From positions 1,054,001 to 1,118,000 of the forward strand of contig OZ024742.1 of NCBI GenBank assembly GCA_964016885.1: a stretch of 64,000 nucleotides of DNA. Reading direction: 5' to 3'. This DNA is from Eledone cirrhosa. Lineage: Eukaryota. The notes under the pieces were generated by a model. It saw only the letters and a program-made list of their open reading frames with translations. It had not been told where the DNA came from and made no database searches. Of the stretch, positions 5,313 to 48,253 are shown in pieces. Position numbers and translations under genes: made by a program. Each line of letters opens with the position of its first letter. The first letter of the stretch is position 1.

Positions 5313-7018
5313 ATCATCATCATCATCATCATCAACGTTTAACGTCCGTGTTCCACGCTTGCATGGGTTTGGACGGGGGTAGTCCCACTTGAGGCAAGAG
5401 TGATTGTCTTGCTCGCATAGGACTGTCTGGCAGGTTTTCTACAGTTGGATGCCCTTCCTAACACCAACCACATTTACAGTGTGGGTCTGGGAGGTTTTTA
5501 CCGTGTTGCCTACACGGCCACATTACAGCGTGGACTGTGTGTTTTTTTGTCGTGACACCTACACGATCTCATTTGTTTCGGCCTCGATGGCGCGGCACCA
5601 ACATAACTTTACATAGAACGGGGTGGTGTGGATGGGGTGGGGGTGGTGGTGGTGGTGGGACGGGGTGTATTTTGTTAGAGATGCCTACTGGCTGGAGTAG
5701 GTTTTACTATATATTTAGGTAAGGCGGGTCTTCTCTGTTACTGAGTACCGCCAAAGGTCTCGGTCCAGTGACATTGTCTTGGAGAGGTGTAAGTGTGTGA
5801 TGTCGGAGTTTATCAGCTCGTCCCAGGTTTTTCTAGGTCTGCCTATTCCGTGACTACCGTCTATCTTTATTGCCCTGCACTTTGTTATACAGCTATCGAC
5901 TTTCATGCGCATCACGTGTCCATACCAACGTAGCCTTCTCTCGAGTAAACAACATCTGATCCCTCTTATCTCTAATTTTTTCCTTAGTTCGTTTATGCTT
6001 TGCCGTTCACGTATATTACTGTTACACATCCAGCGGAGCATGCAAGCTTCGTTCCTCTCTAGTCTGCGTATATCCTCTGCACACAATGCCCAGGTCTCAC
6101 TGCCATGCAGCATTGCTGTTCGTATGCAGGCATCGTACAACCTGCCTTTCATTTTTAGTGAGAACCCTTTAGCAGCTAATAGTGGTATAAGCTCTCTGAA
6201 CTTTTTCCAACCAGTTCTGACTCTAGCTACAGTACTTTCAGAGCACCCTCCCCCACTGCTGATTTTATCGCCCAGGTAACGGAAGCTGTCCACTATTTCT
6301 ATAGAACCCTCTGCGCAATTGAAAGAGCTAGTAGTTTGTGGGCACTTGCTGCTACTTATTGCACCAGAGCACCGGCCACATGTAAAATCTATGTTCTTAG
6401 TTAGCTTACCTGTGATCCCACTACATCTTTTATGCACCCATACTTTGCATTTAGGACATAAAATGGAGTTTCTACCTACGCCTTTCCTACACACCGAGCA
6501 CGACCATTTCCCAGAAGGGACCGCCGCCTTGTTTTCTTTCCTACAAACTAGTACTTTGGTCTTAGCCAGGTTAATTTTAAGTCCTTTTGACTCTAGGCCG
6601 TGCTTCCATGTTTGGAATTTCTTCTCTAGCTCGGCCATTGATTCCGCTATGAGTGTCAGGTCGTCTGCGTATAGGAGTTCCCATGGGCAGCCTGTCTTGA
6701 ACTCCTCTGTTATAGCCTGAAGGGCAATAATAAATAGTAGTGGACTGAGAACAGAGCCCTGATGGATGCCAACTTTTACGCTAAACTCTTCACTATATTC
6801 GTTGTTAATTCTAACCTTGCTGACTGTTTCTTTATACATGGCTTGTATAGCCCTCACAAGCCATTCGTCAACGCCTAGTTTTCTAAGAGCCCACCAGATA
6901 ATGGAGCGGGGGACTCTGTCGAAGGCTTTCTCCAAGTCGACAAAAGCTAAGTAGAGGGGTTTACCTTTAGCTAGGTACTTCTCCTGTAGTTGTCGTACTA
7001 TGAAAAGAGCGTCTGTGG
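5313..7018 (-). mobile_element. RTE LINE subfamily A, 5'-truncated (RT C-half, ORF 5715-7018)
   Basis: Motifs [41 protein letters not shown] and GRPRKTW. It has a (GAT)n tail and (TA)n flanks. Confidence 0.95.
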
Positions 7019-7052
<34 letters not shown>

Positions 7053-7082
7053 GTATATATATATATATATATATATACATAC

Positions 7083-7118
<36 letters not shown>

Positions 7119-7120
<2 letters not shown>

Positions 7121-7435
7121 CATCATCATCATCATCACCGTTTTACGTCCGTTCTTCCACGCTACCATGGGTTAGACGGGTTGTCCTGTTGTGGGCAGTG
7201 TGTGGTTGGATGACCATGCCTTGCTCATACAGGAACTGATTTGGCTTGATTTCTACAGCTGGATGCCCTTCCTAACACCAACCTCATTTACAGTGAGTGC
7301 TGGGTGCTTTTTCGTGGCGCCTACACGTCCACTTTACAGTGTGGGCTGGGTGTTTTTTTGCCGTGGCACCTCCACGACCACCTTGCAGTGGGTGGGTGTG
7401 GGGGATATTGTACCCATGGGAGGTCGGGTACTCTG

Positions 7436-14491: not shown

Positions 14492-17400
14492 ATCATCATC
14501 ATCATCATCACCGTTTTACGTCCGTTCTTCCACTCTAGCATGGGTTAGACGGGTTGTCCTGTTGTGGGCAGTGTCTGGTCGGCTGACCATGCCTTGCTCA
14601 TACAGGAACTGATCTGGCTTGATTTCTACAGCTGGATGCCCTTCCTAACACCAACCTCATTTACAGTGAGTGCTGGGTGCTTTTTCGTGGCGCCTACACG
14701 TCCACTTTACAGTGTGGGCTGGGTGCTTTTTTGCCGTGGGGGGGGGGGGGGGGCATATTGTTTATATGCTTCAGCATGTACCCATGGGAGGTCGGGTACC
14801 CTGTATTACTGCGTGACGCCAGAAGTCACGGTCGTGTGTCATTGACTTTGAGAGGTGTAGTTGGGTAAGGTCGGCTTTTATCACCTCATCCCAAGTCATC
14901 TTGGGTCTCCCCACTCCGCGGTTTCCATCAACTTCTAGTGCTCTGCACCTTTTTATGCAGCTGTCATCCTTCATACGCATTACATGTCCATACCAGCGTA
15001 ACCGCCTCTCCTGCACGCAGCATTTGATTCCTCTTATGCTCAGTCTCTCTCTCAATTCCTTTATGCTTTGTCGTTCACGTATATTACTGTTACACATCCA
15101 TCGGAGCATGCAGGCTTCGTTTCTCTCTAATCTACGTAAGTCTTCCACCTTCAGCGCCCAGGTCTCACTACCATGCAACATCGCTGTTCGGATACACGCA
15201 TCATACAGTCTGCCTTTCATTCTGAGGGAGAAGCCTTTTGCAGCTAGCAGTGGTAGTAGTTCCCTAAACTTCTTCCATCCCGTTCTTACCCTAGTTATTG
15301 TACTTTCTGAGCACCCACCTCCGTTGCTAATTCGGTCACCTAGGTAGCAGAAGCTGTCTACTGTTTCTACAGGGCCCTCCCAGAGATTGGTGGTACTTGT
15401 TTCCTGTGGCTGTTTGCTTGCTGTTTCAGCACAGCTGCTGCATGTGAATCCTACATTCTTAATTAAGCTTCCTGAGATCCCGCTACATCTCTTGTGTACC
15501 CATTGTTTGCATTTGGGGCAGAGAATGGAGTTCCTACCTACACCTTTCCTACATACTGAGCAAGGCCATTTCCCTGAGGGGATCTGGGTTCTGTTTTCTC
15601 GTCTACTTATAAGGACCTTAGTCTTTGTCATGTTGACTTTGAGGCCCTTTCTCTCTAGTCCCTGCTTCCAGGTTTGGAATTTATTCTCTAGTTCTACCAT
15701 AGATTCAGCTATGAGTGCGAGGTCATCAGCATACAGGAGTTCCCATGGGCATCCGGTCTTAAACTCCTCCGTTATTGCCTGCAGGACTATGATGAACAGG
15801 AGAGGGCTAAGAACAGAGCCCTGGTGGACCCCAACCTGTACGCTAAATTCCTCGCTATACTCATTACCAATCCTAACTTTGCTGACTGCTCCCCTATACA
15901 TGGCTTGTACCGCTTTCACAAGCCATTCATCTACTCCTAGTTTTCTAAGAGCCCACCAGATTACTGCACGTGGAACTCTGTCAAAGGCTTTCTCAAGGTC
16001 GACAAATGCCAAGTAGAGTGGCTTACTTTTAGCTAGGTACTTTTCCTGTAATTGCCTCACAAGGAAGAGGGCATCAGTGGTGCCTTTCCCTGGTACAAAC
16101 CCAAATTGCATCTCGTCTATATTCACCCGGTCCCTAATCAGCTGTGCTATAACTCTTTCTGTTACTTTCATGACCTGGTCCATCAACTTTATACCTCTAT
16201 AGTTTCCTCTATCTAGTGCATCGCCTTTACCTTTGTAGCAGTTGACAATGATGCTACTGCACCAATCTTTTGGTATGGCCCCCTCTAGTATTACCTGGTT
16301 AACGATACATGTGGTTATAGTGTGACCTACAGACCCAGATGCCTTCAGCATCTCGGCAGCTATACCCGATGGACCGGTTGCCTTCCCTATCTTCATATAT
16401 CTGATTGCCTTACTTACTACGCTGCCGCTGACTTGTACTGCTGGTCCCTCTATAGGGTCTACGTGGGGTAAGGTCTCTTCTTCCCATGCATTCTCCTCAT
16501 TTAGTAATCTATCATAATGACTCTTCCATGCATCTTTCTTCTCAGCACTTGTGAGGGCAAGCTCACCTTTATCATTCCGGATACACTTCTCTCCAATGAC
16601 ATCACAACTATCTCTGACACACTGCCTCGCAATCTTGAATACCTCCTGTTTCTGGTCCTCACGTTGTAAAACATGCTTGAATTTTCTATCCTCTGCTTCC
16701 CTCCTAGCTAAGTATACTTGTCGCCTAGCTTCCCTCTTGGTCTCTATGTAATGTACCCTGCTCCCCCCGTTCTTCCATTCTTTCCATGCCTGTCTCTTGG
16801 CCTTGACTGCTTCATCTACCTTATTGTTCCACCACCAAGTCACTCTCCTCCTGCTTGAGGTCTTACGACAGCCACAAACCTCATCCGTCGCCTCTAGTAA
16901 GTTATTTTTTAGGAACTCCCAGTTCTCTTCTACGTTAAATGTCTCTATCTGTTCTTCTTTACTGTCGTAGGCGTTGAGTAAAATATCTTTAAATCTGTTA
17001 CTGGTTGAGGGGACTTTCAGCTTCCAGATCTTTCTTCTCCAGGTTGGCCTCTGTTTCAGGGCTCGTCTAGTTCTGACCGTGAGGTCGCTGACAACTAAGC
17101 TATGTTGGGATGTACATTCCTCACTAGGGAAGGCTTTTGTGTTTACGACCGTCCATCTGTCACGTCCTCTGATGAGGATAAAATCTAACTGACTAGAGTG
17201 CTCCCCTGATCTATAGGTGATCAGGTGGTTGTCGGGTTTTTTAAAGTTTGTGTTACATATCGACATGTCATTGGCGTCGCAGAATTCTAGAAGTCTGAAT
17301 CCTTCCTCATTCCTTGTGCCAACTCCATGGCCTCCATGTACTCTATTGAAGCCATCGCAGTGTTTACCTACGTGTCCGTTAAAATCTCCTGCAATGATTA

Positions 17401-17494
17401 GGAAGTCCTTGTCGTCTGTTAGAGCAGTAGTGTGTATTAGGGACTCGTAAAACCTATCCTTAAGTTCGTCTGGCAGCCCCGATTGGGGTGCATA
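14492..17494 (-). mobile_element. RTE LINE subfamily B, longest copy (~3 kb), 5'-truncated within the endonuclease
   Basis: An open frame with APE motifs and RT, a (GAT)n tail, and a 5' end in (TA)n. Confidence 0.95.
14771..17494 (-). CDS. RTE ORF: APE endonuclease (partial) + RT + PHD finger
   Basis: [38 protein letters not shown] and C4HC3. The N-terminal residues in the ORF track are translated microsatellite. Confidence 0.9.
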
Positions 17495-17568
17495 ATATAT
17501 GTATATATATGTATATATATATGTATATGTATATATATATATGTATATATATATATGTATATGTATAT

Positions 17569-17602
<34 letters not shown>

Positions 17603-17654
17603 ATGTATATGTATATATGTATATATACATATGTGTATATATACATATGTATAT

Positions 17655-17963
17655 ATCATCATCATCATCATCACCGTTTTACGTCCGTTCTTCCACGCTA
17701 GCATGGGTTAGACGGGTTGTCCTGTTGTGGGCAGTGTCTGGTCGGCTGACCATGCCTTGCTCATACAGGAACTGATCTGGCTTGATTTCTACAGCTGGAT
17801 GCCCTTCCTAACACCAACCTCATTTACAGTGAGTGCTGGGTGCTTTTTCGTGGCGCCTACACGTCCACTTTACAGTGTGGGCTGGGTGCTTTTTTGCCGT
17901 GGCACCTCCACGACCACCTTGCGGTGGGGGGGGGGGGGGCATATTGTTTATATGCTTCAGCAT
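17655..17963 (-). mobile_element. RTE subfamily B, 3' UTR fragment
   Basis: Near-identical to the B 3' UTR, with (TA)n flanks. Confidence 0.9.
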
Positions 17964-18122: not shown

Positions 18123-19955
18123 TCATCATCATCATCATCATCAACGTTTAACGTCCGTGTTCCACGCTTGCATGGGTTTGGACGGGGGTAGTCCCACTTG
18201 AGGCAAGAGTGATTGTCTTGCTCGCATAGGACTGTCTGGCAGGATTTCTACAGTTGTATGCCCTTCCTAACACCAACCACATTTACAGTGTGGGTCTGGG
18301 AGGTTTTTACCGTGTTGCCTACACGGCCACATTACAGCGTGGACTGTGTGTTTTTTTGTCGTGACACCTACACGATCTCATTTGATTCGGCCTCGATGGC
18401 GCGGTGCCAACATAACTTTACATAGAACGGGGTGGTGTGGATCGGGTGGGGGTGGTGGTGGTGGGACGGGGTGTATTTTGTTAGAGATGCCTACTGGCTG
18501 TAGTAGGTTTTACTATGTATTTAAGTAAGGCGGGTCTTCTCTGTTACTGAGTACCGCCAAAGGTCTCGGTCCAGTGACATTGTCTTGGAGAGGTGTAAGT
18601 GTGTGAGGTCGGAGTTTATCAGCTCGTCCCAGGTTTTTCTAGGTCTGCCTATTCCGTGGCTACCGTCTATCTTTATTGCCCTGCACTTTGTTATACAGCT
18701 ATCGACTTTCATGCGCATCACGTGTCCATACCAACGTAGCCTTCTCTCGAGTAAACAACATCTGATCCCTCTTATTTCTTTTTTCCTTAGTTCGTTTATG
18801 CTTTGCCGTTCACGTATATTACTGTTACACATCCAGCGGAGCATGCAAGCTTCGTTCCTCTCTAGTCTGCGTATATCCTCTGCACACAATGCCCAGGTCT
18901 CACTGCCATGCAACATTGCTGTTCGTATGCAGGCATCGTACAACCTGCCTTTCATTTTTAGGGAGAACCCTTTAGCAGCTAATAGTGGTATAAGCTCTCT
19001 GAACTTTTTCCAACCAGTTCTGACTCTAGCTACTGTACTTTCAGAGCACCCTCCCCCACTGCTGATTTTATCGCCCAGGTAACGGAAGCTGTCCACTATT
19101 TCTATAGAACCCTCTGCGCAATTGAAAGAGCTAGTATTCTGTGGGCACTTGCTGCTACTTATTGCACCAGAGCACTGGCCACATTTAAAATCTATGTTCT
19201 TAGTTAGCTTACCTGTGATCCCACTACATCTTTTATGCACCCATACTTTGCATTTAGGACATAAAATGGAGTTTCTACCTACGCCTTTCCTACACACTGA
19301 GCATGACCATTTCCCAGAAGGGACCGCCGCCTTATTTTCTTTCCTACAAACTAGAAATTTAGTCTTAGCCAGGTTAATTTTAAGTCCTTTTGATTCTAGG
19401 CCGTGCTTCCATGTTTGGAATTTCTTCTCTAGCTCGGCCATTGATTCAGCTATGAGTGTCAGGTCGTCTGCGTATAGGAGTTCCCATGGGCAGCCGGTCT
19501 TGAACTCCTCTGTTATAGCCTGAAGGGCAATAATAAATAGTAGGGGGCTGAGAACAGAGCCCTGATGGACGCCAACTTTTACGCTAAACTCTTCACTATA
19601 TTCGTTGTTAATTCTAACCTTGCTGACTGTTTCTTTATACATGGCTTGTATAGCTCTCACAAGCCATTCGTTAACACCTAGTTTTCTAAGAGCCCACCAG
19701 ATAATGGAGCGGGGGACTCTGTCGAAGGCTTTCTCCACGTCGACAAAAGCTAAGTAGAGGGGTTTACCTTTAGCTAGGTACTTCTCCTGTAGTTGTCGTA
19801 CAATGAAAAGTGTGTCTGTGGTACTTTTGCCCGACACAAACCCAAACTGCATTTCATCTAGGTCAATTCTCTCTCTGATTAGTTGCGCTATTACTTTTTC
19901 CGTGACCTTCATGACCTGGTCGATTAATTTAATGCCTCTATAGTTACTCCTATCT
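18123..19955 (-). mobile_element. RTE subfamily A, 5'-truncated (RT, 18521-19955)
   Basis: RT motifs with YADD. The 5' end is fused to a PLE hairpin. Confidence 0.95.
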
Positions 19956-20264
19956 GTGCCTTTCCTTTCTTCTATCCTACGCCATTTTGTTTGTGTGACA
20001 CACAAACAAAATGGCGTAGGATAGAAGAAAGGAAAGGCACAGAAACGAAGAAAGAAATCCCCAGTCACTGAAGAGGTCACAGAGTGTGTGACGAAAGAAC
20101 TATGACTATATATATATAAACAACTATCTGGTTGTGGAACCAACCAACCAACCAGAAATTTATAAATTTGTAAATTTATAAATATATATTAAATTAAATT
20201 GAAGTGAAAGCAACTGGTGCGTGTGTTTCTTATTGGCAACATGACCCTCCCAAAGTATAACAAT
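19953..20264 (+). mobile_element. PLE pseudo-LTR with a 45-bp 5' fold-back
   Basis: A perfect palindrome at 19953-20043 centred on 19998, then an HHR. The terminus ATGACCCTCCCAAAGTATAACAAT is shared with the element at 3631-5230. Confidence 0.8.
20063..20107 (+). ncRNA. Minimal type I hammerhead ribozyme
   Basis: AGTCA-CTGAAGA-G-GTCAC agagtgt GTGAC-GAAA-G aa C-TA-TGACT. Confidence 0.8.
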
Positions 20265-21064
<800 letters not shown>

Positions 21065-23182
21065 CTAAATGAGGAGAATAATTGGGAGAAAGGCAGTCTC
21101 CCCCATATCGACCCAATAGAGGGACCAGCAGTGTTAGTCGAGGGGAGTATAATAAGTAAGGCAATCAAGGATATGAAGACTGGTAAGGCGGCTGGGCCTT
21201 CGGAAATAGTTGCTGAGATGCTGAAGGCATCTGGCACGGTGGGACACACCATGGTCACCCGCATAGTTAACCAAGTCGTACAAAACGGGGTTGTTCCGAA
21301 GGACTGGCATAGCAGCATCATCGTTAACTGTTATAAGGGTAAAGGAGACGCCCTAGATAGGAGTAACTATAGAGGCATTAAATTAATCGACCAGGTCATG
21401 AAGGTCACGGAAAGAGTAATAGCGCAACTAATCAGAGAGAGAATTGACCTAGATGAAATGCAGTTCGGGTTTGTGTCAGGCAAAAGTACCACAGACGCTC
21501 TTTTCATAGTACGACAACTACAAGAGAAGTACCTAGCTAAAGGTAAACCCCTCTACTTAGCTTTTGTCGACTTGGAGAAAGCCTTCGACAGAGTCCCCCG
21601 CTCCATTATCTGGTGGGCTCTTAGAAAACTGGGCGTTGACGAATGGCTTGTGAGGGCTATACAAGCCATGTATAAAGAAACAGTCAGCAAGGTTAGAATT
21701 AACAACGAATATAGTGAAGAGTTTAGCGTAAAAGTCGGCGTCCATCAGGGCTCTGTTCTCAGTCCACTACTATTTATTATTGCCCTTCAGGCCATAACAG
21801 AGGAGTTCAAGACAGGCTGCCCATGGGAACTCCTATACGCAGACGACCTGACACTCATAGCGGAATCAATGGCCGAGCTAGAGAAGAAATTCCAAACATG
21901 GAAGCACGGCCTAGAGTCAAAAGGACTTAAAATTAACCTGGCTAAGACCAAAGTACTAGTTTGTAGGAAAGAAAACAAGGCGGCGGTCCCTTCTGGGAAA
22001 TGGTCGTGCTCGGTGTGTAGGAAAGGCGTAGGTAGAAACTCCATTTTATGTCCTAAATGCAAAGTATGGGTGCATAAAAGATGTAGTGGGATCACAGGTA
22101 GGCTAACTAAGAACATAGATTTTACATGTGGCCGGTGCTCTGGTGCAATAAGTAGCAGCAAGTGCCCACAAACTACTAGCTCTTTCAATTGCGCAGAGGG
22201 TTCTATAGAAATAGTGGACAGCTTCCGTTACCTGGGCGATAAAATCAGCAGTGGGGGAGGGTGCTCTGAAAGTACTGTAGCTAGAGTCAGAACTGGTTGG
22301 AAAAAGTTCAGAGAGCTTATACCACTATTAGCTGCTAAAGGGTTCTCACTAAAAATGAAAGGCAGGTTGTACGATGCCTGCATACGAACAGCAATGCTGC
22401 ATGGCAGTGAGACCTGGGCATTGTGTGCAGAGGATATACGCAGACTAGAGAGGAACGAAGCTTGCATGCTCCGCTGGATGTGTAACAGTAATATACGTGA
22501 ACGGCAAAGCATAAACGAACTAAGGAATAAATTAGAGATAAGAGGGATCAGATGTTGTTTACTCGAGAGAAGGCTACGTTGGTATGGACACGTGATGCGC
22601 ATGAAAGTCGATAGCTGTATAACAAAGTGCAGGGCAATAAAGATAGACGGTAGTCACGGAATAGGCAGACCTAGAAAAACCTGGGACGAGCTGATAAACT
22701 CCGACATCACACACTTACACCTCTCCAAGACAATGTCACTGGACCGAGACCTTTGGCGGTACTCAGTAACAGAGAAGACCCGCCTTACCTAAATATATAG
22801 TAAAACCTACTCCAGCCAGTAGGCATCTCTAACAAATACACCCCGTCCCACCACCCCCACCCCATCCACACCACCCCGTTCTATGTAAAGTTATGTTGGT
22901 GCCGCGCCATCGAGGCCGAAACAAATGAGATCGTGTAGGTGTCACGACAAAAAAACACACAGTCCACGCTGTAATGTGGCCGTGTAGGCAACACGGTAAA
23001 AACCTCCCAGACCCACACTGTAAATGTGGTTGGTGTTAGGAAGGGCATCCAACTGTAGAAAACCTGCCAGACAGTCCTATGCGAGCAAGACAATCACTCT
23101 TGCCTCAAGTGGGACTACCCCCGTCCAAACCCATGCAAGCGTGGAACACGGACGTTAAACGTTGATGATGATGATGATGATG

Positions 23183-23900: not shown

Positions 23901-24059
23901 TATTTACGTATCGAGAAAGAGAAAAAAACGGGAGGATAGGTGATACATATAGTTATTTGCCAAGTAGCGTATGCCAAAGGTGCTCGATACTAGTGCCGGC
24001 AGTATTAAATATTCGAAGTGTTAATATTTAGTGGGCTAGAGAGTTAGCAGAGCGTAAGC

Positions 24060-24282: not shown

Positions 24283-25547
24283 AAACATGGAAGCATGGCC
24301 TAGAATCAAAAGGCCTTAAAATTAACCTGTCTAAGACTAAAGTTCTAGTTTGTAGGAAGGAAAATAGGGCGCCGGTCCCATCCGGGAAATGGCCATGCTC
24401 AGTGTGTAGGAAAGGGGTAGGTAGAAACTCCATTTTATGTCCAAATGCAAAGTATGGGTGCATAAAAGATGTAGTGGGATCACAGGTAAGCTAACTAAGA
24501 ACATAGATTTTATATGTGGCCGGTGCTCTGGTGCAATAAGTAGCAGCAAGTGCCCACAGAATACTAGCTCTTTCAATTGCACAGATGGTTCTATAGAAAT
24601 AGTGGACAGCTTCTGTTACCTGGGTGACAAAATCAGGGTGCTCTGAAAGTACAGTAGCTAGAGTCAGAACTGGATGGAAAAAGATCAGAGAGCTTATACC
24701 ACTATTAGCCGCTAAAGGGTTCTCCCTAAAAATGAAAGGCAGGCTGTATGATGCCTGCATACGAACAGCAATGTTGCATGGCAGTGAGACCTGGGCATTG
24801 TGTGCAGAGGATATACGCAGACTAGAGAGGAACGAAGCTTGCATGCTCCGCTGGATGTGTAATAGTAATATACGTGAACGGCAAAGCATAAATGAACTAA
24901 GGGAAAAATTAGAAATAAGAGGGATCAGATGTTGTTTACTCGAGAGAAGGCTATGTTGGTATGGTCACGTGATGCGCATGAAAGACGACAGCTGTATAAC
25001 AAAGTGCAGGGCAGTAAAAATAGACGGTAGCCACGGAGTAGGCAGATCCAGAAAAACCTGGGACGACTTGATAAATTCCGACCTCACACACTTACACCTC
25101 TCCAAGACAATGTCACTGGACCGAGATCTTTGGCGCTACACAGTAATAGAGAAGACCCGCCTTACCTAAGTGCAAAATGAAACCTACTACAGTCAGTAGG
25201 CACCTCTAACAAAATACACCCCCGTCCCACTACCCCCACCCCATCCAGACCCTTTCAATGTAAAGTTATGTTGGTACCACAAATCCAGCCCGAAACAAAC
25301 GAGGTCATGTAGGTGTCACGACAAAAAAACACACAGTCCACGCTGTAATGTGGCCGTGTAGGTAACACGGTAAAAACCTCCCAGTTCCACACTGTAAATG
25401 TGGTTGGTGTTAGGAAGGACATCCAGCCGTAGAAAACCCGCCAGACAGTCCTGTGCGAGCAAGACAACCACTCTTGCCTCAAGTGGGAAAACTCCCGTCC
25501 AAACCCATGCGAGCGTGGAATATGGACATTAAACGATGATGATGATG

Positions 25548-25549
<2 letters not shown>
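24283..25549 (+). mobile_element. RTE subfamily A variant, truncated and frameshifted
   Basis: RT C-terminal part with frameshifts at ~24441 and ~24636, and a (GAT)n tail. Confidence 0.9.
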
Positions 25550-25579
<30 letters not shown>

Positions 25580-25819
25580 GTAAGTATATTCTTTCTTTCT
25601 TTCTTTTTTTTTTCTTGTGGCATGATATTAACGCTGACTTATGTTCCTATCCCTTTCTGTTTTCTTTTATTTGACCAGTAGTAAGTTGACCTGTAAGCTT
25701 TGGCCACGTCACTTGAGGGCGACCGGCAAAGGTGGAAGATGCTGGATGGCGGTCGTCCTCAGGTCTTTGATTTTCAGCCCCATGGATTTTATCTATTACA
25801 TTCACTTATTATATTTCGA

Positions 25820-25877
25820 ATACCTGATGATATCACCGGATTCATACGGAACCCGGTCATTGAAATGATCATAGTAT
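25820..25877 (+). ncRNA. Type I hammerhead ribozyme
   Basis: ATAC-CTGATGA-tatcACCGG...CCGGTcatt-GAAA-TGATCA-TA-GTAT, then AATAAA. The base of stem II is imperfect. Confidence 0.7.
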
Positions 25878-28440
25878 AATAAACCTTTCAAGGATTTACA
25901 TAAGTCCAGCCTCCTGTCATTTCATTATAATATTTAACTCCATACTAGCACCACCAACTACAAAAACAAAGACGGTTGAACTGCTTTACGTTGAATACTC
26001 TCCATATTATTACATTAAGATTGACCATACGGAATTGACCAGCTCTATCCAGTGGTGAACCTCAAACCTGAATAAATAATGCTCCTGAAATGTTGAACAC
26101 TTCCAAATCTAATAATGAACAGCGGCATGGTACTTAATATATCTAACCACCATTCGGATTTTGTCTACTCAGTGTTTTTGCCTACCGCCCACCTGGCCCA
26201 TTGCTACTTCCCTCTCCAAATATTCAGACTTCGACGAAATTCTACGGATTATACCATAACCTGTATTGTACTGTACTGTATTGACTAAATTCGCTACCCT
26301 ATACTTCAGGGCCTGTGTAACTCACACTGAATTCTCAGACTCGAACACACACTGATTCCATTTCCGCATCTATATGCATTATCTGACTGCAACTTGAACT
26401 ATATTGTATTTCTCCTGTGTCTTGATCTCTCCATTTACTCACCACCACTCTTGTTTGTTTATTTATATCTTTATATCTTTCTACCTTTGCTGTATTAATG
26501 TTTTTTCCACGTATTCTACTTCTATACATCCATGTACTTTTTACTCCTCTTATTCGGACTTTTACTCGCGTGTACCCATTAGCACACGACACTAGAATGT
26601 CGCCCCCTGGGAACATAAATACTGCAACCTGAACTATATTGTATTTCTCCTATGTCTTGATTTCTCCATCTTACTCTACCACAACTCTTGTTGGTTTATT
26701 TATATATTTATACCTTTGCTTTATTAATGTGCTTTTCCACGTATTCTACTTCTATGTGTCCATATATTTCTACTCCTCTTATTGGGACTTTTACTCACTT
26801 GTACCCATTAGCACACGACACTAGAATGTCTCCCCCTGAGAACAAAAATAAATATTACCCGATTATATCCCTTACTCTACATCCCACTAGGATAACTTAT
26901 GGAGGATCTATATAATACAATTAACGTTTCTTCATAAAAGACTCTCTTTAACTAAACCCCGCAACCCAAAACCTTAAAAAAATTTTTTAAATGTTTAATT
27001 TTCAATTTTCTATTTGTTCAATTCTCAATCTTCTTACTCTTTAATTTTATAATGTTATTCTGAATTCTTTCAACTTCATCCTATAAATCTAAACAATATT
27101 TTAACGTTCCAACTTTCTGTTGGACTGTTGGGTTGGTTTTCCTGGCGGCGGGACCGGCCCCCTGGCGCATAGGCCTACCTTGAGTGCTTGGAAAAATAAA
27201 TTTCCCATTCTTTCGGTAAATGAAACTACTCAGAGTGGCTTGATTCGCCCCGGGGGCCCGGCGCGCAGCCGGTTTTTTGACCGCCATATAGTACCTTTAA
27301 ATTACAGATCAAATCAGAACTATTAGATGTATCACGCCTCCCTCTACTTAAGTAAATCCCCCTCCTGGGTAAAGGAATAGTACTGGTTTTGTACAAGGAT
27401 GGCCTAACGATGCGAGCTGACTTCCTGCTCTGCGCACCTGAAGCCTGTTATACATTCCTAGAGAGCTCGGAAAAATCGATTTCCATATCTTTCGCTAGGC
27501 GATATCACTCAGAGTGATGGGCTGCGCAAGCTTGTGGTCGCCGCATGCTGTTTGATGGCTAAACAAAGACAATCTTTACTCTATAATAAAAGTTTCTTCA
27601 TAAAAGACTCTTTCTTTGCTTAAACCTCGCAACCTTAAAAATGTTAAACTGTTTAACTTGCAATTTTCTAATTTCTTTAATTTTATAATGTTAATATTAA
27701 ATATTAATCTTTAACTTCATCCTATAAATCTAAACAAAAATGTAATGTTCCAATCTTCTGCTCACATATTATAACATACAGACCCCCACTATATTTACCT
27801 CTGCTAACATACGGGTCCCTTTAAAAATATTTTTTCGTGCCATTCCTGGCCTGACTGTAGTCTGACATTAATATTGACCTTTCTTCCTCTTTCTTTCTAT
27901 CTTTCTTCTTGTCGCCATCAACCCTGACTTTTCTTTTTCTTCCTTCTCTTCCCCCTTCTTTCTGTCTTTCTCCTTGTGGCATGATATTAACGCTGACTTA
28001 TCTTCCTCCTCCTTTTTGTTTGCCTATATTTGACTGGTAGTAGTTGTTAAGATATGGGTCCCTTAGAATATTTTTTTTTCGCGACATTCCTGGCCTGACT
28101 GTAATACCGACCTTTCCTCCTCTTTCTGTCTTTCTTTTTATAGCTGACATTAACCCTGACTTCTCTTCCTTTTCTTCCTTCCCCCTTCTCTCTTCTTTCT
28201 TTCTTTTTCCTTGCCCCTTCTTCTCAATTCTTTCTTTCTTCTTGTGGCATGATATTAACGCTGACATGTTCCTATCCCTTTGTTTTCCTTTATTTGACCG
28301 GTAGTAGCACACTGTAAGCTTTAGCCACGTCACTTGAGGGCGACCGGCAAAGGTGGAAGATGCTGGATGGCGGTGGTCCTTGGGTCTTTGATTTTCAGCC
28401 CCATGGATTTTATCTATTACATTCACTTATTATATTTCGA

Positions 28441-28498
28441 ATACCTGATGATATCACCGGATTCATACGGAACCCGGTCATTGAAATGATCATAGTAT
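28441..28498 (+). ncRNA. Type I hammerhead ribozyme (second copy)
   Basis: Identical to 25820-25877. Confidence 0.7.
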
Positions 28499-28599
28499 AA
28501 TAAACCTTTCAAGGATTTACACAAGGCCAGCCTCCTGTCATTTCATTATAATATATATATATATATATACATATGTATATATATATATATATATACATA

Positions 28600-28940
28600 C
28601 ATCATCATCATCATCATTTCATTTTACGTCCACTTTTCCCTGCTTGCAAGGGTGGGATGGGAACTGATTCTGGCTTGATTTCTACAGCTGGATGCCCTTC
28701 CTAACACCAACCTCATTTACAGTGAGTGCTGGGTGCTTTTTTGCCGTGGCACCTCCACGACCACTTTGCAGTGGATAGGGACCCCAGTTCCTATCATCTC
28801 ATTTCTACAGCTGAGTAAACTGGAGCAATGTGAAATAAAGTGTCTTGCTCAAGGAAACAACACATCGCCCGGTCTGAGAATTGAACTCACAACCTTTCGA
28901 TTGCAAGGCCAATGCTCTAAACACTAAGCCATGTGCCTCC
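28600..28940 (-). mobile_element. tRNA-derived SINE with RTE-type tail
   Basis: A box TGGCTTAGTG, B box GAGTTCAATTC, CORE-like CCTTGAGCAAGACACTT, a tail shared with RTE-B, and (GAT)n. Confidence 0.9.
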
Positions 28941-29857
28941 ATATAAATACATATATATAATGAATAAACAAAGAAACAGTTCCTTATATTAAAGAAAATT
29001 CATCATTTTACGATTGTTTCTAGGATATATATTTGTTAGAGTTGGTATGCATATTCTATAGATCTATGTACAATATTTATACAAACTATCAGAGGGAATA
29101 TACATACCTACACATATATATGCTGTCTTCAGAAATAATGATATTTGTTTATTGAAAAAACAAAGATTCAATACAATAGGTCTGTTTGGGAACAGGTTTT
29201 GAATTGACCAATAGAGAGATAGTGAGGGTCAAGGTAGTAATATAGTAGTAGAAGAACCTTAAATTATGGGTAGAGGAAGGTAGATTTCAGTTTTGGATGG
29301 AAAAGAATATTATGGATGAAGGATTATTTTAGGGAAGAAATAGGTCTTATGCTGACCTCAGAAATAATTTTATTTGTTCATTGAATAAAACCAACAAAGA
29401 TCTAATATATTCTGTCTGTTTGGTAAGAGGTTTAGAATTAACCAATAGAAAGTTAATAATTGGCCAAATGGTAAAATAGTAGTAATTGAAGCTTATTTTA
29501 GGGGTGAAAATAGGTCAGGTGGTCAGTAAAAGGTATACAAGCAGTTGCTGTTATAAAATAGTAATGCCAATACAAATATCTAAGGAGACTAAAATTTTAC
29601 GATAAGAATGTTAGTGAAAAAAATACATCTATGAAAAGAATATAAATTAATTTAATTGATGGGTATATTTATATTGATAAAATTATACTAATACATATAG
29701 ATATGATAAATAAGAGTTAGATGCAGTTGAAAAGTGCTGTTAAAGATGAGGGGAAATTAAAAGAATATAAAAATAATATATATATATACTTATATATATA
29801 TATATATATACAGAAAGATCTAATATATTCTGTCTGTTTGGTCAGAGGTTTAGAATT

Positions 29858-31383
29858 AAAGCCTTTGACAGAGTTCCACGTGCTGTAATCTGGTGGGCTC
29901 TTAGAAGACTAGGAGTAGATGAATGGCTTGTGAAAGCGGTACAAGCCATGTATAGGGGAGCAGTCAGCAAAGTTAGGATTAGCAATGAGTATAGCGAGGA
30001 ATTTAGCGTACAGGTTGGGGTCCACCAGGGCTCTGTTCTTAGCCCTCTCCTGTTCATCATAGTCCTGCAGGCAATAACGGAGGAGTTTAAGACCGGATGC
30101 CCATGGGAACTCCTGTATGCTGATGACCTCGCACTCATAGCTGAATCTATGGTAGAACTAGAGAATAAATTCCAAACCTGGAAGCAGGGACTAGAGAGAA
30201 AGGGTCTCAAAGTCAACATGACAAAGACTAAGGTCCTTGTAAGTAGACGAGAAAACAGAACCCAGATCCCCTCAGGGAAATGGCCTTGCTCAGTATGTAG
30301 GAAAGGTGTAGGTAGGAACTCCATTCTCTGCCCCAAATGCAAACAATGGGTACACAAGAGATGTAGCGGGATCTCAGGAAGCTTAATTAAGAATGTAGGA
30401 TTCACATGCAGCAGCTGTGCTGAAACAGCAAGCAGCAAACAGCCACAGGAAACAAGTACCACCAATCTCTGGGAGGGCCCTGTAGAAACAGTAGACAGCT
30501 TCTGCTACCTAGGTGACCGAATTAGCAACGGAGGTGGGTGTTCATAAAGTACAATAACTAGGGTAAGAACGGGATGGAAGAAGTTTAGGGAACTACTACC
30601 ACTGCTAGCTGCAAAAGGCTTCTCCCTCAGAATGAAAGGCAGACTGTATGATGCGTGTATCCGAACAGCGATGTTGCATGGTAGTGAGACCTGGGCGCTG
30701 AAGGTGGAAGACTTACGTAGATTAGAGAGAAACGAAGCCTGCATGCTCCGATGGATGTGTAACAGTAATATACGTGAACGACAAAGCATAAATGAATTGA
30801 GAGAGAGACTGAGCATAAGAGGAATCAAATGCTGTGTGCAGGAGAGGCGGTTGCGCTGGTATGGACATGTGATGTGTATGAAGGATGACAGCTGCATAAA
30901 AAGGTGAAGAGCACTAGAAGTTGATGGAAACCGCGGAGTGGGGAGACCCAAGATGACCTGGGATGAGGTGATAAAAGCCGACCTTACCCAATTACACCTC
31001 TCAAAGACAATGACACACGACCGTGACTTCTGGCGTCACGCAGTAATACAGAGTACCCGACCTCCCATGGGTACATGCTGAAGCATATAAACAATATGCC
31101 CCCACACCCCCCACCGCAAGGTGGTCGTGGAGGTGCCACGGCAAAAAAGCACCCAGCCCACACTGTAAAGTGGACGTGTAGGCGCCACGAAAAAGCACCC
31201 AGCACTCACTGTAAATGAGGTTGGTGTTAGGAAGGGCATCCAGCTGTAGAAATCAAGCCAGATCAGTTCCTGTATGAGCAAGGCATGGTCAGCCGACCAG
31301 ACACTGCACACAACAGGACAACCCGTCTAACCCATGCTAGCGTGGAAGAACGGACGTAAAACGGTGATGATTATGATGATGAT
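29858..31383 (+). mobile_element. RTE subfamily B, truncated, with premature stops
   Basis: RT motifs, stops at ~30545 and ~30905, and a (GAT)n tail. Confidence 0.95.
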
Positions 31384-31519: not shown

Positions 31520-34138
31520 TTATTGGGGGGGGGGAGGGAATTAAATTTATTAGTGAGAAATAATAAATATATATAGTTTTCAAGGAACAGAGTCATAACC
31601 TGAAGTTAAAGCATTATATATGTTTACTTAATGGTATCAGTTTTAGGAAATGATATTTGTAAGAAGGAAAGCAAAATTATGTAGTTCATCAGTAGTAGAA
31701 TATTAATTATAGGTTAACTAAATTAAAAATAGTTTATATATTAATTTCTAAAGTGTATATTAATTAGGTTTATAATATTTAAAGCAGAATTATGTAGTTC
31801 ATCAGTAGTAGAATATTAATTATAGGTTAACTAAATTAAAAATAGTTTATATATTAATTTCTAAAGTGTATATTAATTAGGTTTATAATATTTAAAGGTT
31901 TTTCTCAGTTTATGATTACACGATATTATTAATTCCTGTCGCTTATTTAATAGGATATCCTTAGATTTCATTATTTCAAAAAGTTCTTGGGAACATAATC
32001 TACATTCATATCTACTATTTTGATAAGGGGTGGCCCTTTTGAGCACACTCCAGGTCAGGTCATAATCTATATTCCTCTTTCTATAACTATTAATTATTTC
32101 AGCTAGAGATGTTGTATTAGCTAGTGCGGCATTTTTAAAACTATGTTTGTGGGTATTAAATCTTACCTTAAACTTGTTAGAGGTAGCTCCTATATATGAA
32201 TAAATTGAGTCCTTAATATTAACTTTACATTTATATACTATGTTATTAACAAGGCAATTTCCTTTTAATGGACAGTTTGCCTTGTTTCTACAGTTACAAC
32301 TTTTCGTGAATCTTGTATCTGAGGAGATATTATGGTTAGTTTGATGTACTGGTGGTATACTCATGGTTTTTTTACATTTATATGCATTATAGGCACTTAT
32401 ATTTTGTTTTATGTTTTTGGTTGTTGAGTAGGAGAATTTAACCATTGATCTATTTAAGATTTGATGGTATTTGTGGTTTGGCGGGAAGTTTTTCTCTAGG
32501 ATATTAAAGAATTTTTTAGGTATATTATCCTTAATTTGTAAATTAAATGGAGCATTATACCAAGTAACTCGTCTATTACGGTTTCGATGTTGTTTATTGT
32601 TTTTATAGGATGCATCCTGATGTTTATTAAGAGAATTATTGTTAATGACCTCACCACACACATTTTTAGTTAGATTTATTGATTTAGGTGTTTTAGCTTG
32701 TTTATTAGGAGTTTTATTATTAACATTTATTAGAGTTGTAGGATGAGTAGTTTTTTGAGAGTTACTATACTGTATATTAGAAGAGTTAGAGAAATTTGGT
32801 TTTATGTTGGTGTTTTGGGGTATAGTGTGAGTGGCATTTAGGTGTGTATGTTTCATTTGGTGTTTGTTGGTAATATTAGGTTGTATGTTTGTAGTGTTAT
32901 TGGTAGAAGGTATATATACTAATCTATTTTTGTGGCCACTTCTAGCTAGAGCTTCGTTATAAAAGGTCGCATTTTTATCAAATATATCTTGGTTAGATGA
33001 AAGGTTAGAAATTCTAAGTGATATATTATATGCAAGGTTTTTAAGGATAGATTTAGGGTGATTAGATTGTGAGTGTATGTAGTGTAAATTTTGGTTGGGT
33101 TTATGGTATGGTTGGTAGATACCCGTAGATAAGTCTAATGTTATAACTAGGAAATTAACTACTTTACTTGTGTTTTCAAATGTAATATCTAGACTATAAT
33201 AGTCTTTAAGGAAAGTTCTAATAAGCTTTTTATTTTTTTCTATCTCTGAGAGGCTAAGGTTATTGGAAAGAAGAAGACAGTCGTCACGATATAAACCACC
33301 TTTAAGGTGGGGAAAGGAAGCATTTATGTTAAAAAGAAGAAAGAGGCCCACAAGATCAGTAATTTGGGCAGAATCGCTTGAGCCCATAGTAATATCGAAT
33401 AGATTACTATGTGTGTTTCTGGTCCAGTATTCATTCTGAAATTCCAATAGTGTTAGTCTAGCATGTGTAATAATATTAATGTCATCCAAAGTTAAGTTAG
33501 ATCTATTTTTAGCAAATATCAAGGCTTTGTTCAGGAGTATAGATGATATAGAAGAATAATAATTATCTATATCAAATTGTAGAAATGAAGCAGAGGATTT
33601 ATTTCTAATATTATTAAACCAGTTAATTACCTGGGATGTGTTTTCCCAGAGTGGTAAATTAACATGTTTTCTTAGTTGTGGGATGACTCTATCTAAAAAT
33701 TTTTTACTAATTATTCCAATATCAGATTTGGAAGGGCATATAAGCCTTATAGAAGGATTAGAGTTAAAGTTAGATTTATGATCTTTCAGGTTGAAGTGTG
33801 GTCTTTTCAATGCCAAAGGTTCAGTTCTATCTTCAATATTAAGACTATTCACTATGCTGTGTGTTTTGTTGTTGATGTTGGTAAGTCACGCATTGTTTGT
33901 TTTTCTATAATTTTTCATGAGTTCTTTATATATGAACTCATTGTAATTTTCAATATCCATGTGATATAGATTTCCAGTTTTGTCCGAGTGGACATGGATT
34001 TTTATCTTGACTCTGTTTTCCGTTTATTTTTCACCGAAAGTAGTTTTTGAATGCATCTTCTCTTTTCATGATATCCGGATTACATTGAGTTCTTCATACG
34101 GATTGGACATTACCGTAAACTTTTGGTAGATTTATCTA
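31520..34138 (-). mobile_element. Penelope-like element, 5'-truncated
   Basis: An RT + GIY-YIG ORF, a frameshifted upstream SDKTGNLY motif, and a ~116-bp tandem duplication at the 3' end. The 5' flank is (TA)n. Confidence 0.85.
31873..33852 (-). CDS. PLE reverse transcriptase + C-terminal GIY-YIG endonuclease (N-terminally frameshifted)
   Basis: LKDHK, IRLI, FDIDNYY, TMGS, LYRDD, YHKP, SNHP; CNC-x5-CPL-x3-C; NIVY...YIG...RF..H; E...LLNKR. Confidence 0.9.
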   Translation of the reverse strand: MNSLNIEDRTEPLALKRPHFNLKDHKSNFNSNPSIRLICPSKSDIGIISKKFLDRVIPQLRKHVNLPLWENTSQVINWFNNIRNKSSASFLQFDIDNYYSSISSILLNKALIFAKNRSNLTLDDINIITHARLTLLEFQNEYWTRNTHSNLFDITMGSSDSAQITDLVGLFLLFNINASFPHLKGGLYRDDCLLLSNNLSLSEIEKNKKLIRTFLKDYYSLDITFENTSKVVNFLVITLDLSTGIYQPYHKPNQNLHYIHSQSNHPKSILKNLAYNISLRISNLSSNQDIFDKNATFYNEALARSGHKNRLVYIPSTNNTTNIQPNITNKHQMKHTHLNATHTIPQNTNIKPNFSNSSNIQYSNSQKTTHPTTLINVNNKTPNKQAKTPKSINLTKNVCGEVINNNSLNKHQDASYKNNKQHRNRNRRVTWYNAPFNLQIKDNIPKKFFNILEKNFPPNHKYHQILNRSMVKFSYSTTKNIKQNISAYNAYKCKKTMSIPPVHQTNHNISSDTRFTKSCNCRNKANCPLKGNCLVNNIVYKCKVNIKDSIYSYIGATSNKFKVRFNTHKHSFKNAALANTTSLAEIINSYRKRNIDYDLTWSVLKRATPYQNSRYECRLCSQELFEIMKSKDILLNKRQELIISCNHKLRKTFKYYKPN

Positions 34139-37229: not shown

Positions 37230-38839
37230 CATCATCATCATCGTCATCATCATCATCGTTTAACGTCCGTGTTCCATGCTTGCATGGGTTTGGACGGGAG
37301 TTTTCCCACTTGAGGCAAGAGTGGTCGTCTTGCTCGCATAGGACTGTCTGGCGGGTTTTCTACAGTTGGATGCCCTTCCTAACACCAACCACATTTACAG
37401 TGTGGAACTGGGACGTTTTTACCGTGTTGCCTACACGGTCACATTACAGCGTGGACTGTGTGTTTTTTTTTCGTGACACCTACACGATCTCATTTGTTTC
37501 AGCCTGGATTTTGTGGCACCAACATAACTTTACATTGAAAGGGGCGGTGTGGATAGGGTGGGGGTGGTGGGACGGGGGTGTATTTTGTTAGAGATGCCTA
37601 CTGACTGTAGTAGGTTTTACTTTGTATTTAGGTAACGCGGGTCTTCTCTGTTACTGAGTACCGCCAAAGGTCTCGGTCCAGTGACATTGTCTTGGAGAGG
37701 TGTAAGTGTGTGAGGTCGGAATTTATCAGCTCGTCCCAGGTTTTTCTGGGTCTGCCTACTCCGTGGCTACCATCTATCTTTATTGCCCTGCACTTTGTTA
37801 TACAGCTGTCGTCTTTCATGCGCATCACGTGACCATACCAACGTAGCCTTCTCTCGAGTAAACAACATCTGATCCCTCTTATTTCTAATTTTTTCCTTAG
37901 TTCGTTTATGCTTTGCCGTTCGCGTATATTACTATTACACATCCAGCGGAGCATGCAAGCTTCGTTCCTCTCTAGTCTGCGTATATCCTCTGCACACAAT
38001 GCCCAGGTCTCACTGCCATGCAACATTGCTGTTCGTATGCAGGCATCATACAACCTACCTTTCACTTTTAGGGAGAACCCTTTAGCGGCTAATAGTGGTA
38101 TAAGCTCTCTGAACTTTTTCCATCCAGTTCTGACTCTAGCTACTGTACTTTCGGAGCACCCTCCCCCACTGCTGATTTTGTCACCCATGTAACGGAAGCT
38201 GTCCACTATTTCTATAGAACCCTCTGCGCAGTTGAAAGAGCTAGTATTTTGTGGGCACTTGCTGCTACTTATTGCACCAGAGCACCGGCCACATGTAAAA
38301 TCTGTGTTCTTAGTTAGCCTACCTGTGATCCCACTACATCTTTTATGCACCCATACTTTGCATTTGGGACATAAAATGGAGTTTCTACCTACGCCTTTCC
38401 TACACACTGAGCATGGCCATTTCCCGGAAGGGACCGGCGCCTTATTTTCTTTCCTACAAACTAGAACTTTAGTCTTAGCCATGTTAATTTTAAGGCCTTT
38501 TGATTCTAGGCCGTGCTTCCATGTTTGGAATTTCTTCTCTAGCTCGGCCATTGATTCAGCTATGAGCGTTAGGTCATCTGCGTATAGGAGTTCCCATGGG
38601 CAGCCGATCTTGAACTCCTCTGTTATAGCCTGAAGAGCAATAATGAATAGTAGGGGGCTAAGAACAGAGCCCTGATGGACACCAACTTTTACGCTAAACT
38701 CTTCACTATATTCGTGAAGAGTTTAGCGTAAAAGTTGGTGTCCATCAGGGCTCTGTTCTTAGCCCCCTACTATTCATTATTGCTCTTCAGGCTATAACAG
38801 AGGAGTTCAAGACCGGCTGCCCATGGGAACTCCTATACG
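37230..38839 (-). mobile_element. RTE subfamily A variant with 126-bp fold-back 5' end
   Basis: RT C-half at 37628-38713. 38581-38706 is duplicated in inverted form at 38714-38839. Confidence 0.95.
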
Positions 38840-47902: not shown

Positions 47903-48253
47903 GGAGGCACATGGCTTAATGGTTAGAGCATTGGGCTTGCAATCGAAAGGTTGTGAGTTCAATTCTCTGACCGGGTGATGTGTTGTTTCCTTGAGCAAGA
48001 CACTTTATTTCACATTGCTCCAGTTTACTCAGCTGTAGAAATGAGATGATAGGGACTGGGGTCCCTATCATTCCACTGCAAAGTGGTCGTGGAGGTGCCA
48101 CGCCAAAAAAGCACCCAGCACTCACTGTAAATGAGGTTGGTGTTAGGAAGGGCATCCAGCTGTAGAAATCAAGCCAGAATCAGTTCCCGTCCTACCCTTG
48201 CAAGCAGGGAAAAGCGGACGTAAAATGAAATGATGATGATGATGAATGATGAT
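47903..48253 (+). mobile_element. tRNA-derived SINE with RTE-type tail
   Basis: Same family as 28600-28940, with TA flanks. Confidence 0.9.

What the first reader, a model, noticed from the sequence alone, without database searches (positions are those of the whole stretch)
27140..27560. Duplicated unknown structured-RNA core on two unrelated GC-rich stems
Seen: 27178-27237 (CCTtGAGtGCTtGGAAAAATaaATTTCCcattCTTTCGgTAaatGAaActACTCAGAGTG) and 27457-27516 (CCTaGAGaGCTcGGAAAAATcgATTTCCatatCTTTCGcTAggcGAtAtcACTCAGAGTG) align without gaps. Both can form a junction from GAG/CTC, GGAAA/TTTCC and a TTCG hairpin. The flanks share no obvious sequence, yet each pairs into a long stem (CCGGCCCC..GGCG..AGGCC / GGCTT..CGCC..GGGGGCCCGG; TGCGCA..GCCTGTTA / TGATGGGC.TGCGCA). 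Inference: keeping the structure while the sequence diverges suggests a functional RNA motif, such as an RT-binding or priming signal, a ribozyme or an IRES-like element. I do not recognise it.
Basis: partly seen in the sequence, partly recalled or inferred. Interest (0 to 1): 0.75.

Follow-up and report, generated by a model that had tools for sequence, protein, structure and literature searches.

The report
TAR-like enzyme bait in Penelope parasite
The two look-alike stretches sit in a protein-free jumping element with many copies in this animal genome, and each is predicted to fold into a Y-shaped tip whose neck repeats the small bulged helix found beside the places where Penelope-type insertions end, so it likely works as an extra landing site that captures the copying enzyme the element borrows.

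Summary
The duplication is real (45/60 identical). It lies inside a 2.6-kb non-coding Penelope-like element (PLE) with a hammerhead, two fixed insertion ends and (TA)n targets. The core pattern has 805 exact genomic matches and no Rfam match.

The "unrelated" stems are diverged paralogues of one ~200-nt module. Across subfamilies the core is far more conserved than the stems (41/57 versus 27/148 invariant columns). Base-pair covariation is not significant, and this copy folds barely better than shuffles.

The neck of the core (CC-UN-GAGU-GCU / ACUC-GG) is a circular permutation of the bulged hairpin lying just past both fixed ends of this element and in published Hydra-clade PLEs. It has the layout of the HIV TAR arginine-sandwich bulge, and Hydra proteins carry an arginine-rich stretch. 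One two-armed insertion ends 5 nt before a rod's ACUC, as if copying began there.

Best reading (0.5): extra, normally non-priming docking sites for a Hydra-clade RT-endonuclease. There are no expression or binding data. The scan reported these rods and the docking idea before on other DNA (e1-10309240, e1-8838466, e1-9541804). I did not see the TAR match or the rod-tip start in the summaries shown.

The parts
25601..28557 (+). One insertion (about 1.13 units; unit about 2.62 kb) of a non-coding Penelope-like element, between (TA)n tracts
   Evidence: longest stop-free frame 142 codons
25819..25878 (+). Type I hammerhead motif, upstream copy (CUGAUGA at 25824)
   Evidence: sequence read directly; not detected by Rfam
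25937..25999 (+). End hairpin 1: ACUC-CGU ... ACG-UU-GAGU-ACU in the family (A for G at 25942 and 25995 in this copy); one class of insertion arms stops a few nt before it
26081..26101 (+). End hairpin 2: GCUC-C ... G-UU-GAGC-ACU in the family (A for G at 26097 here); the other class of arms stops before it
27117..27290 (+). Module 1: predicted GC-rich rod carrying core 1
27178..27233 (+). Core 1: CC 27178-9, bulge UU 27180-1, GAGUG 27182-6, CUU, P2 27190-27205, 5-nt linker, P3 27211-27225, UACUC 27227-31, GG (A,G in this copy) 27232-3
27385..27565 (+). Module 2: paralogous rod, shortened by deletion in this subfamily, weakly folding
   Evidence: (z -0.49 for its majority)
27457..27512 (+). 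Core 2: same layout at +279; bulge UA; family has GAGUG and CACUCGG (this copy carries private changes at 27464 and 27511)
28440..28499 (+). Type I hammerhead motif with palindromic stem III (CUGAUGA 28445, GAAA 28483, predicted cut after 28494)
   Evidence: cleavage not tested
28552..28557 (+). Fixed 3' end of this insertion (end 1), joined to (TA)n
31873..33885 (-). Neighbouring Hydra-clade PLE reading frame (670 aa; GLYRDD, Arg-rich stretch before WYNAPF, CxCX5C); an example of the likely enzyme class, not shown to be this family's partner
   Evidence: compared by eye with the alignment

Best explanation
The two cores are conserved modules inside a non-coding Penelope-like element; each is predicted to form a Y-shaped tip whose neck repeats the bulged helix found beside the element's insertion ends, and it likely serves as an extra, normally non-priming docking site for a borrowed Hydra-clade RT-endonuclease. 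SHOWN: the element anatomy (hammerhead motif, two fixed ends, inverted arms, (TA)n target); selective conservation of the core across subfamilies; identity of the neck (U-N bulge, GAGY/RCUC, unpaired RCU) with the end hairpins, strand order swapped. INFERRED: the bulge U forms a triple with the A-U pair two steps up, as in the TAR arginine sandwich, and is read by the Arg-rich stretch before W[FY]NPP in Hydra proteins. At true ends the 5' flank of the hairpin is single-stranded and AT-rich and can be primed by nicked (TA)n DNA. At the rod tips the same positions (-7 to -3) are locked in helix P3, so the enzyme would bind without usually starting. Bound enzyme would then be handed to the two true start hairpins, letting the parasite compete with the enzyme's own RNA.
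For: Constraint: 41/57 invariant core columns versus 15/76 and 12/72 in the arms over 14 module majorities, with congruent module-1 and module-2 trees, so no gene conversion. Against the oldest subfamily only the cores, hammerhead and tail stay alignable. Inserted copies decay evenly, so the constraint acts on master elements. Motif: among 52 distinct GAGYRCY contexts with an upstream RCUC, 13 close a 3-bp helix across a 2-nt bulge versus 2, 1, 2 and 0 for bulges of 0, 1, 3 and 4 nt; 12 of the 13 bulges start with U. The permuted form is in 10 of 10 module majorities versus 0.07-0.23% of shuffles (one ancestral event). In 293 modules anchored only on P2/P3, bulge U is 94%, the second bulge base is free, GAGU is 95-96% and ACUC 92-95%. 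Published Hydra consensi from coral and sea cucumber carry the hairpin. A genomic Hydra copy stops just before it while another runs through it (L266, L267). TAR layout (U23.A27-U38, Arg on G26 and G28) from PMC6189040 passages. Arg-rich stretch in the published alignment and in 4 of 4 Hydra frames checked here. One two-armed insertion has a short inverted arm from end 2 and a second arm ending 5 nt before rod-1's ACUC (L255/L269); the positional control gave 0. A variant that lost module 2 carries two or three tandem module-1 copies (L041-L043).
Against: Binding, structure and transcription are untested. Core pairs show no covariation. Rod-arm covariation: two-sided changes beat the null at p<0.05 in 3 of 39 comparisons and paired counts in 1 of 39. 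The arm-swap test was weak (native -43.2, distant chimeras -39.9, shuffles -37.5 +/- 6.4; native best in 2 of 39). The neck of module 2 is predicted unformed (P<=0.09) in 3 of 7 subfamily majorities. Rod-tip starting rests on 1 clear case among 4 places (1 ambiguous, 2 chance; reversed-pattern control 2 matches). Most inserted arms are short and never reach the rods, so the rods are not needed at the site of priming. No autonomous partner sharing this element's 3' end was found, and none of the 34 GIY-YIG loci examined has a rod. Subfamilies were first found through a core pattern, which inflates core conservation. The motif definition was written after seeing both forms.
Confidence: 0.5

Rival explanations
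1. The cores are binding sites for a host arginine-rich protein (HEXIM/P-TEFb-like elongation factor, export or stability factor) that raises the level or export of the element's RNA; the likeness to the end hairpins reflects origin or convergence.
For: The TAR/7SK-type bulge is a host-protein site in 7SK (PMC6189040 passages). In the rods the strand order is the same as in TAR. P2 and P3 are invariant but absent from the end hairpins, so they need a further explanation.
Against: It does not explain the shared unpaired RCU or the insertion ending at the homologous register. The modules lie about 1.1-1.6 kb into the unit, not near an evident 5' end.
Confidence: 0.17
2. The modules are relics of a captured 300-360-nt structured RNA or small retro-parasite that was duplicated early; they are now eroding, and the core looks conserved mainly through ascertainment.
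For: The twin region is a tandem duplication of a 300-360-nt unit. Folding z falls from -6.3 and -5.2 in ancestral-like modules to -0.5 to -2.4 in this subfamily. Arm covariation is not significant. Subfamilies were found with a core pattern.
Against: Majorities came from 500-600-nt DNA searches, and both paralogous lineages keep the same 41 columns while about 80% of arm columns changed. Neck conservation holds when anchoring only on P2/P3.
Confidence: 0.15
3. Two modules act together: ACUC of module 1 pairs with UN-GAGU-GCU of module 2 and rebuilds a start hairpin in the canonical order, an alternative internal priming site; this is why modules come in pairs.
For: It would give the canonical strand order and fits the L255 end equally well. 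In two subfamilies it is only 2-3 kcal/mol worse than the intra-module fold.
Against: Cross-pair probability is 0.00 in 7 of 7 majorities and the intra-module fold is better by 2-22 kcal/mol. Rod-tip ends are very rare.
Confidence: 0.1
4. The three-way junction is an undescribed self-cleaving or ligating ribozyme.
For: Invariant unpaired bases (CU, UC, loop UA), and the element already uses a hammerhead motif.
Against: No Rfam ribozyme match. No hammerhead core on either strand of the core (sequence). Copy breakpoints do not cluster at the core.
Confidence: 0.05

Closest known systems
Hydra clade of C-terminal EN+ Penelope-like elements (Craig et al. 2021, PMC8557442; passages, section 11, supplement parts 51, 53, 58 and search hits seen)
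   Same: (TA)n targeting, hammerhead motif, partial tandems, inverted arms and tail; the same bulged hairpin is in three published consensi.
   Different: No ORF here; tail about 142 nt rather than 30-40; internal permuted copies of the hairpin on long rods. The passages seen do not describe the hairpin. Hydra-1_Crog has only a variant, and the parts of Hydra-1_Obim seen lack it.
Animal non-LTR retrozymes as non-autonomous PLE derivatives (bioRxiv 10.64898/2026.07.22.740005, parts 1-2 of 5 read, supplements not seen; PMC7229834, search listing only)
   Same: Non-coding, type I hammerhead per unit, tandem or partial-tandem copies.
   Different: Unit 2.6 kb versus 51-972 bp in that survey; mostly truncated two-armed insertions; extra internal modules.
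Poseidon PAc internal initiation (Frangieh et al. 2024, PMC11167929; parts 1-2 of 4 read)
   Same: Two internal RT start points downstream of the hammerhead that match genomic copy ends; AT-rich target; predicted dimer.
   Different: Different clade; start in an AC-rich stem-loop inside the ORF; no bulge motif and no decoy sites described.
HIV TAR / 7SK arginine-sandwich motif (Pham et al. 2018, PMC6189040, passages; PMC7583470, passages)
   Same: Bulge U followed by a free base, then G-C, A-U and G-C pairs: the positions used for the U.A-U triple and the arginine contacts.
   Different: Apical part is a three-way junction, not a hexaloop; extra conserved RCU; no homology is claimed; triple and arginine binding are untested here.
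Stringent LINE/SINE 3' stem-loops, ZfL2/UnaL2 (PMC4176376, abstract only)
   Same: A parasite shares the RT-binding stem-loop of its partner.
   Different: Those are terminal and priming-coupled; here extra copies are internal, permuted and capped.

Membership tests
Non-autonomous Penelope-like element | pLTR/partial tandem with inverted 5'-truncated arm | tested here: met
Non-autonomous Penelope-like element | Two fixed 3' ends (tail) and microsatellite target | tested here: met
Non-autonomous Penelope-like element | Type I hammerhead motif in the pLTR | tested here: met
   motif read at 25824 and 28445; activity untested
Non-autonomous Penelope-like element | No RT/GIY-YIG ORF | tested here: met
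Non-autonomous Penelope-like element | 3' end homologous to an autonomous family | tested here: inconclusive
   no homology in 34 GIY-YIG loci or 4 Hydra loci; only the short hairpin motif is shared
Hydra-clade partner | (TA)n insertion and shared end hairpin with Hydra elements | tested here: met
Hydra-clade partner | Mobilisation by a Hydra RT-EN | not testable with these tools
   needs a trans-mobilisation assay
Non-LTR retrozyme | Short (<1 kb) tandem unit with one hammerhead per unit | tested here: not met
   unit 2.62 kb here
Non-LTR retrozyme | Circular RNA in cells | not testable with these tools
   no RNA run was available
Arginine-sandwich motif (TAR/7SK) | Invariant bulge pyrimidine, A-U pair two steps up, flanking G-C pairs | tested here: met
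   against PMC6189040
Arginine-sandwich motif (TAR/7SK) | Base triple and arginine intercalation | not testable with these tools
   needs NMR or binding assays
Known Rfam families (hammerhead, HDV-like, twister, SRP, telomerase RNA and others) | Covariance-model match of the core | tested here: not met
   E<=10, window; E<=10, old subfamily

The most novel reading that the evidence does not exclude
Hydra-clade Penelope enzymes, sisters of telomerase, read their RNA through a Tat-TAR-like code (Arg-rich peptide plus U-bulge triple), and this parasite evolved circularly permuted, start-blocked copies of that signal as natural RT aptamers that load the enzyme in trans.
Probability: 0.3. Interest if true: 0.8.

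Novelty: new variant of a known kind. Interest (0 to 1): 0.58.

Why it matters
How PLE reverse transcriptases pick their RNA and their internal start site is open: in the one reconstituted element the binding motif was only narrowed to 172 nt (PMC11167929). This motif gives a ~55-nt RNA, a candidate peptide and point mutants to test. If right, it shows a way for a non-coding parasite to beat cis-preference by adding non-priming docking sites, and it offers a portable tag for loading a PLE enzyme on a chosen RNA.

Tried and rejected
Rfam, three scans: nothing.

Outside the genome: viral contigs 0; metagenomes 0, then 1 sludge contig lacking P3 and the ACUC partner, judged chance.

Sequencing runs: no RNA holder listed. 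Three runs of one sample, kept as contigs, confirm the family letters only; their depth is no copy number.

ADAR-editing footprint: no A>G excess in the rods of 29 copies.

Gene conversion between modules: rejected by congruent trees.

Rod covariation: 14 two-sided pairs had no control; the controlled tests were mostly negative.

Autonomous partner: the GIY-YIG hits whose frames I read had a Neptune-like linker (by eye); none of 34 loci carries a rod; L168 holds only a separate short insertion of this family. The window's Hydra ORF shares no DNA with the element.

Resemblances to SRP/7SL, telomerase CR4/5, H/ACA and Pol III boxes were recalled from memory and dropped for lack of an Rfam hit or consistent boxes.

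Literature: nine searches listed no paper that describes this motif, judged from titles, abstract starts and the passages read. Subscription papers and Repbase/Dfam were not searchable, and the bioRxiv preprint's supplements were not seen.

Full report
OBSERVATION. The two 60-mers align without gaps at 45/60, well above anything else in the window (at most 33/60), and identity falls to background on both sides. Rfam gives no match at gathering thresholds over the window, or at E<=10 over 25500-28700 and over an old-subfamily copy. The stretch is not unique. A 441-nt query finds 1367 candidates in the 3.0-Gb genome, the best 40 at 93-100%, and a 34-place core pattern has 805 exact matches against 0 for its reversal. 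The window copy carries private changes, including A for G at 27232 and 27511, and folds only weakly better than shuffles (z -1.95 and -1.26).

THE HOST ELEMENT. Thirty loci show homology over 25601-28557, a unit of about 2.62 kb, with one end shared and the other variably truncated, often beside an inverted arm. Thirty loci found with the terminal part are mostly short two-armed insertions in (TA)n that stop at two fixed points about 142 nt apart. A type I hammerhead motif with palindromic stem III lies on the + strand at 25824 and 28445. The unit has no stop-free frame over 142 codons. These are the features described for Penelope-like elements (PMC8557442 passages), and the two ends correspond to the two internal RT start points shown for PAc (PMC11167929). 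The element is therefore a non-autonomous PLE; it resembles retrozymes (bioRxiv 10.64898/2026.07.22.740005) but has a longer unit.

THE MODULES. Twenty further loci chosen for variant cores and five subfamily searches show that each core tips a ~200-nt module and that the two modules are paralogues. Seven subfamily majorities were built from 158 of 161 twin regions; 3 singletons were dropped. Module-1 and module-2 trees mirror each other, so there was one duplication and no conversion. The core keeps 41 of 57 columns invariant versus 15/76 and 12/72 in the arms. Against the oldest subfamily only the two cores, the hammerhead and the tail still align. Inserted copies decay at the same rate inside and outside the core (1.3-1.9% non-CpG, 29 copies), so any selection acts on source elements. 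One caveat: subfamilies were first reached through a core pattern.

STRUCTURE, FOR AND AGAINST. In ten module majorities the three helices are mostly predicted (P1 >=0.9 in 8, P2 >=0.93 in 9, P3 >=0.7 in 7), z is <=-2 in 7 of 10, and the + strand folds better in all ten. But the pairs hardly vary: 93% of cells are paired, only 1 of 19 pairs has a two-sided change, and 214/500 shuffles reach that. In the long arms, two-sided changes beat a matched null in 3 of 39 comparisons and paired counts in 1 of 39, and the arm-swap test was weak.

THE LINK TO PRIMING SITES. Earlier scan notes mentioned bulged hairpins at Hydra-type PLE ends, so I tested this here. Just past both fixed ends the family has RCUC-NNN ... 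NNN-UN-GAGY-RCY, and so do many unrelated (TA)n-inserted repeats in the fetched loci, with differing NNN pairs. Without demanding pairing, 13 of 52 distinct contexts close a 3-bp helix across a 2-nt bulge versus 2, 1, 2 and 0 for other bulge sizes, and 12 of the 13 bulges begin with U. In all, 273 arms end 0-13 nt before RCUC; the anchors allowed only this range. Published autonomous Hydra consensi carry the hairpin: the record printed before Hydra-1_Obim (by file order Hydra-2_Amil), Hydra-1_Ajap twice and Hydra-2_Ajap. Hydra-1_Crog has a variant, and the parts of Hydra-1_Obim seen lack it. In this genome one Hydra copy stops just before such a hairpin and another runs through it.

THE NECK IS THE SAME HELIX. 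The neck of the core is this helix with the strands in swapped order: CC-UN-GAGU-GCU ... ACUC-GG. It is present in 10 of 10 module majorities versus 0.07-0.23% of shuffles; this is one ancestral event, and the motif was defined after seeing both forms. In 293 modules anchored only on P2/P3, the bulge U is 94%, the next base is free (A 26, G 32, U 39%), GAGU is 95-96% and ACUC 92-95%.

LIKELY CHEMISTRY (inferred). A bulge U, a free base, then G-C, A-U and G-C is the layout of the TAR/7SK arginine sandwich, in which U23 pairs with A27-U38 and arginines contact G26 and G28 (PMC6189040 passages). I recalled the likeness and then checked it there. Hydra proteins have an Arg-rich stretch before W[FY]NPP in the published alignment and in 4 of 4 frames checked here, including a 670-aa frame at window 31873-33885. 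At true ends the bases 5' of RCUC are AT-rich (85% over 37 hairpin types) and predicted free; at the tips positions -7 to -3 are the 3' strand of P3. The tips would therefore bind but seldom prime.

A RECORD OF PRIMING AT A TIP. Genome-wide patterns for arms ending at a tip found 4 places. One is clear: L255/L269, with a short inverted arm from end 2 plus an arm ending 5 nt before rod-1's ACUC, between (TA)n tracts. One is an ambiguous 30-nt match and two are chance; the reversed pattern gave 2 matches. A positional control about 60 nt downstream gave 0. This is suggestive only. A variant lacking module 2 has two or three tandem module-1 copies. A cross-module fold that would rebuild the canonical hairpin is disfavoured in 7 of 7 majorities, though by only 2-3 kcal/mol in two, and the module-2 neck is predicted unformed in 3 of 7.

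LIMITS. There are no RNA data. The partner family was not found. No homologue was found outside this genome, in collections that are mostly microbial or viral. The invariance of P2 is unexplained.

VERDICT. This is a real, uncatalogued, selectively conserved module in a non-autonomous PLE. It is most likely an internal, permuted, start-blocked copy of the Hydra-clade docking hairpin (0.5); rivals are a host-protein site (0.17), an eroding relic (0.15), a cross-module start site (0.1) and a ribozyme (0.05). Nine literature searches listed no description. The scan noted the rods and the docking reading before on other DNA, which is not independent support. New variant of a known kind; interest 0.58.

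Noticed in passing
window 31873-33885 (-): 670-aa Hydra-clade PLE frame with no Pfam hit, open through its stop codon but starting behind a stop, with a long Asn/Thr-rich stretch before the Arg-rich motif.
   Followed up: partly
window 5718-7142, 11191-12909, 14771-17707, 18521-20188, 20633-22792, 29777-30547, 37628-38722: Seven copies, several 95-99% alike, of a LINE whose single frame has a PHD finger directly after the RT domain.
   Followed up: no
window 26386-26850, 26916-27119 with 27582-27760, 27802-28307: The element grew by internal duplications (236-bp, ~190-bp and ~250-bp repeats) that are absent from older subfamilies.
   Followed up: partly
L041, L042, L043: Variant that deleted module 2 and carries two or three tandem copies of module 1.
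   Followed up: partly
L266 and L267, after the Hydra 3' UTR: Both copies have a hammerhead-like motif whose core reads CAGAAGA instead of CUGAAGA.
   Followed up: no
L162 and L077-L081 (G000:C4 77.58-77.61 Mb): Five near-identical old-subfamily copies 4-7 kb apart, within a larger tandem duplication that also holds an RT fragment.
   Followed up: no
window 23979-24053 (-): Another instance of the RCUC ... UN-GAGY-RCY hairpin pattern with a long loop, in a different repeat.
   Followed up: no
window 47910-47969 (+): Marginal Rfam tRNA hit (29.3 bits), possibly a SINE head.
   Followed up: no
core positions 27208/27224 and 27487/27503: In module 2 GAAA became GAUA, and later AUUUC became AUAUC, which would restore pairing in an alternative P3 register; a possible switch.
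   Followed up: no
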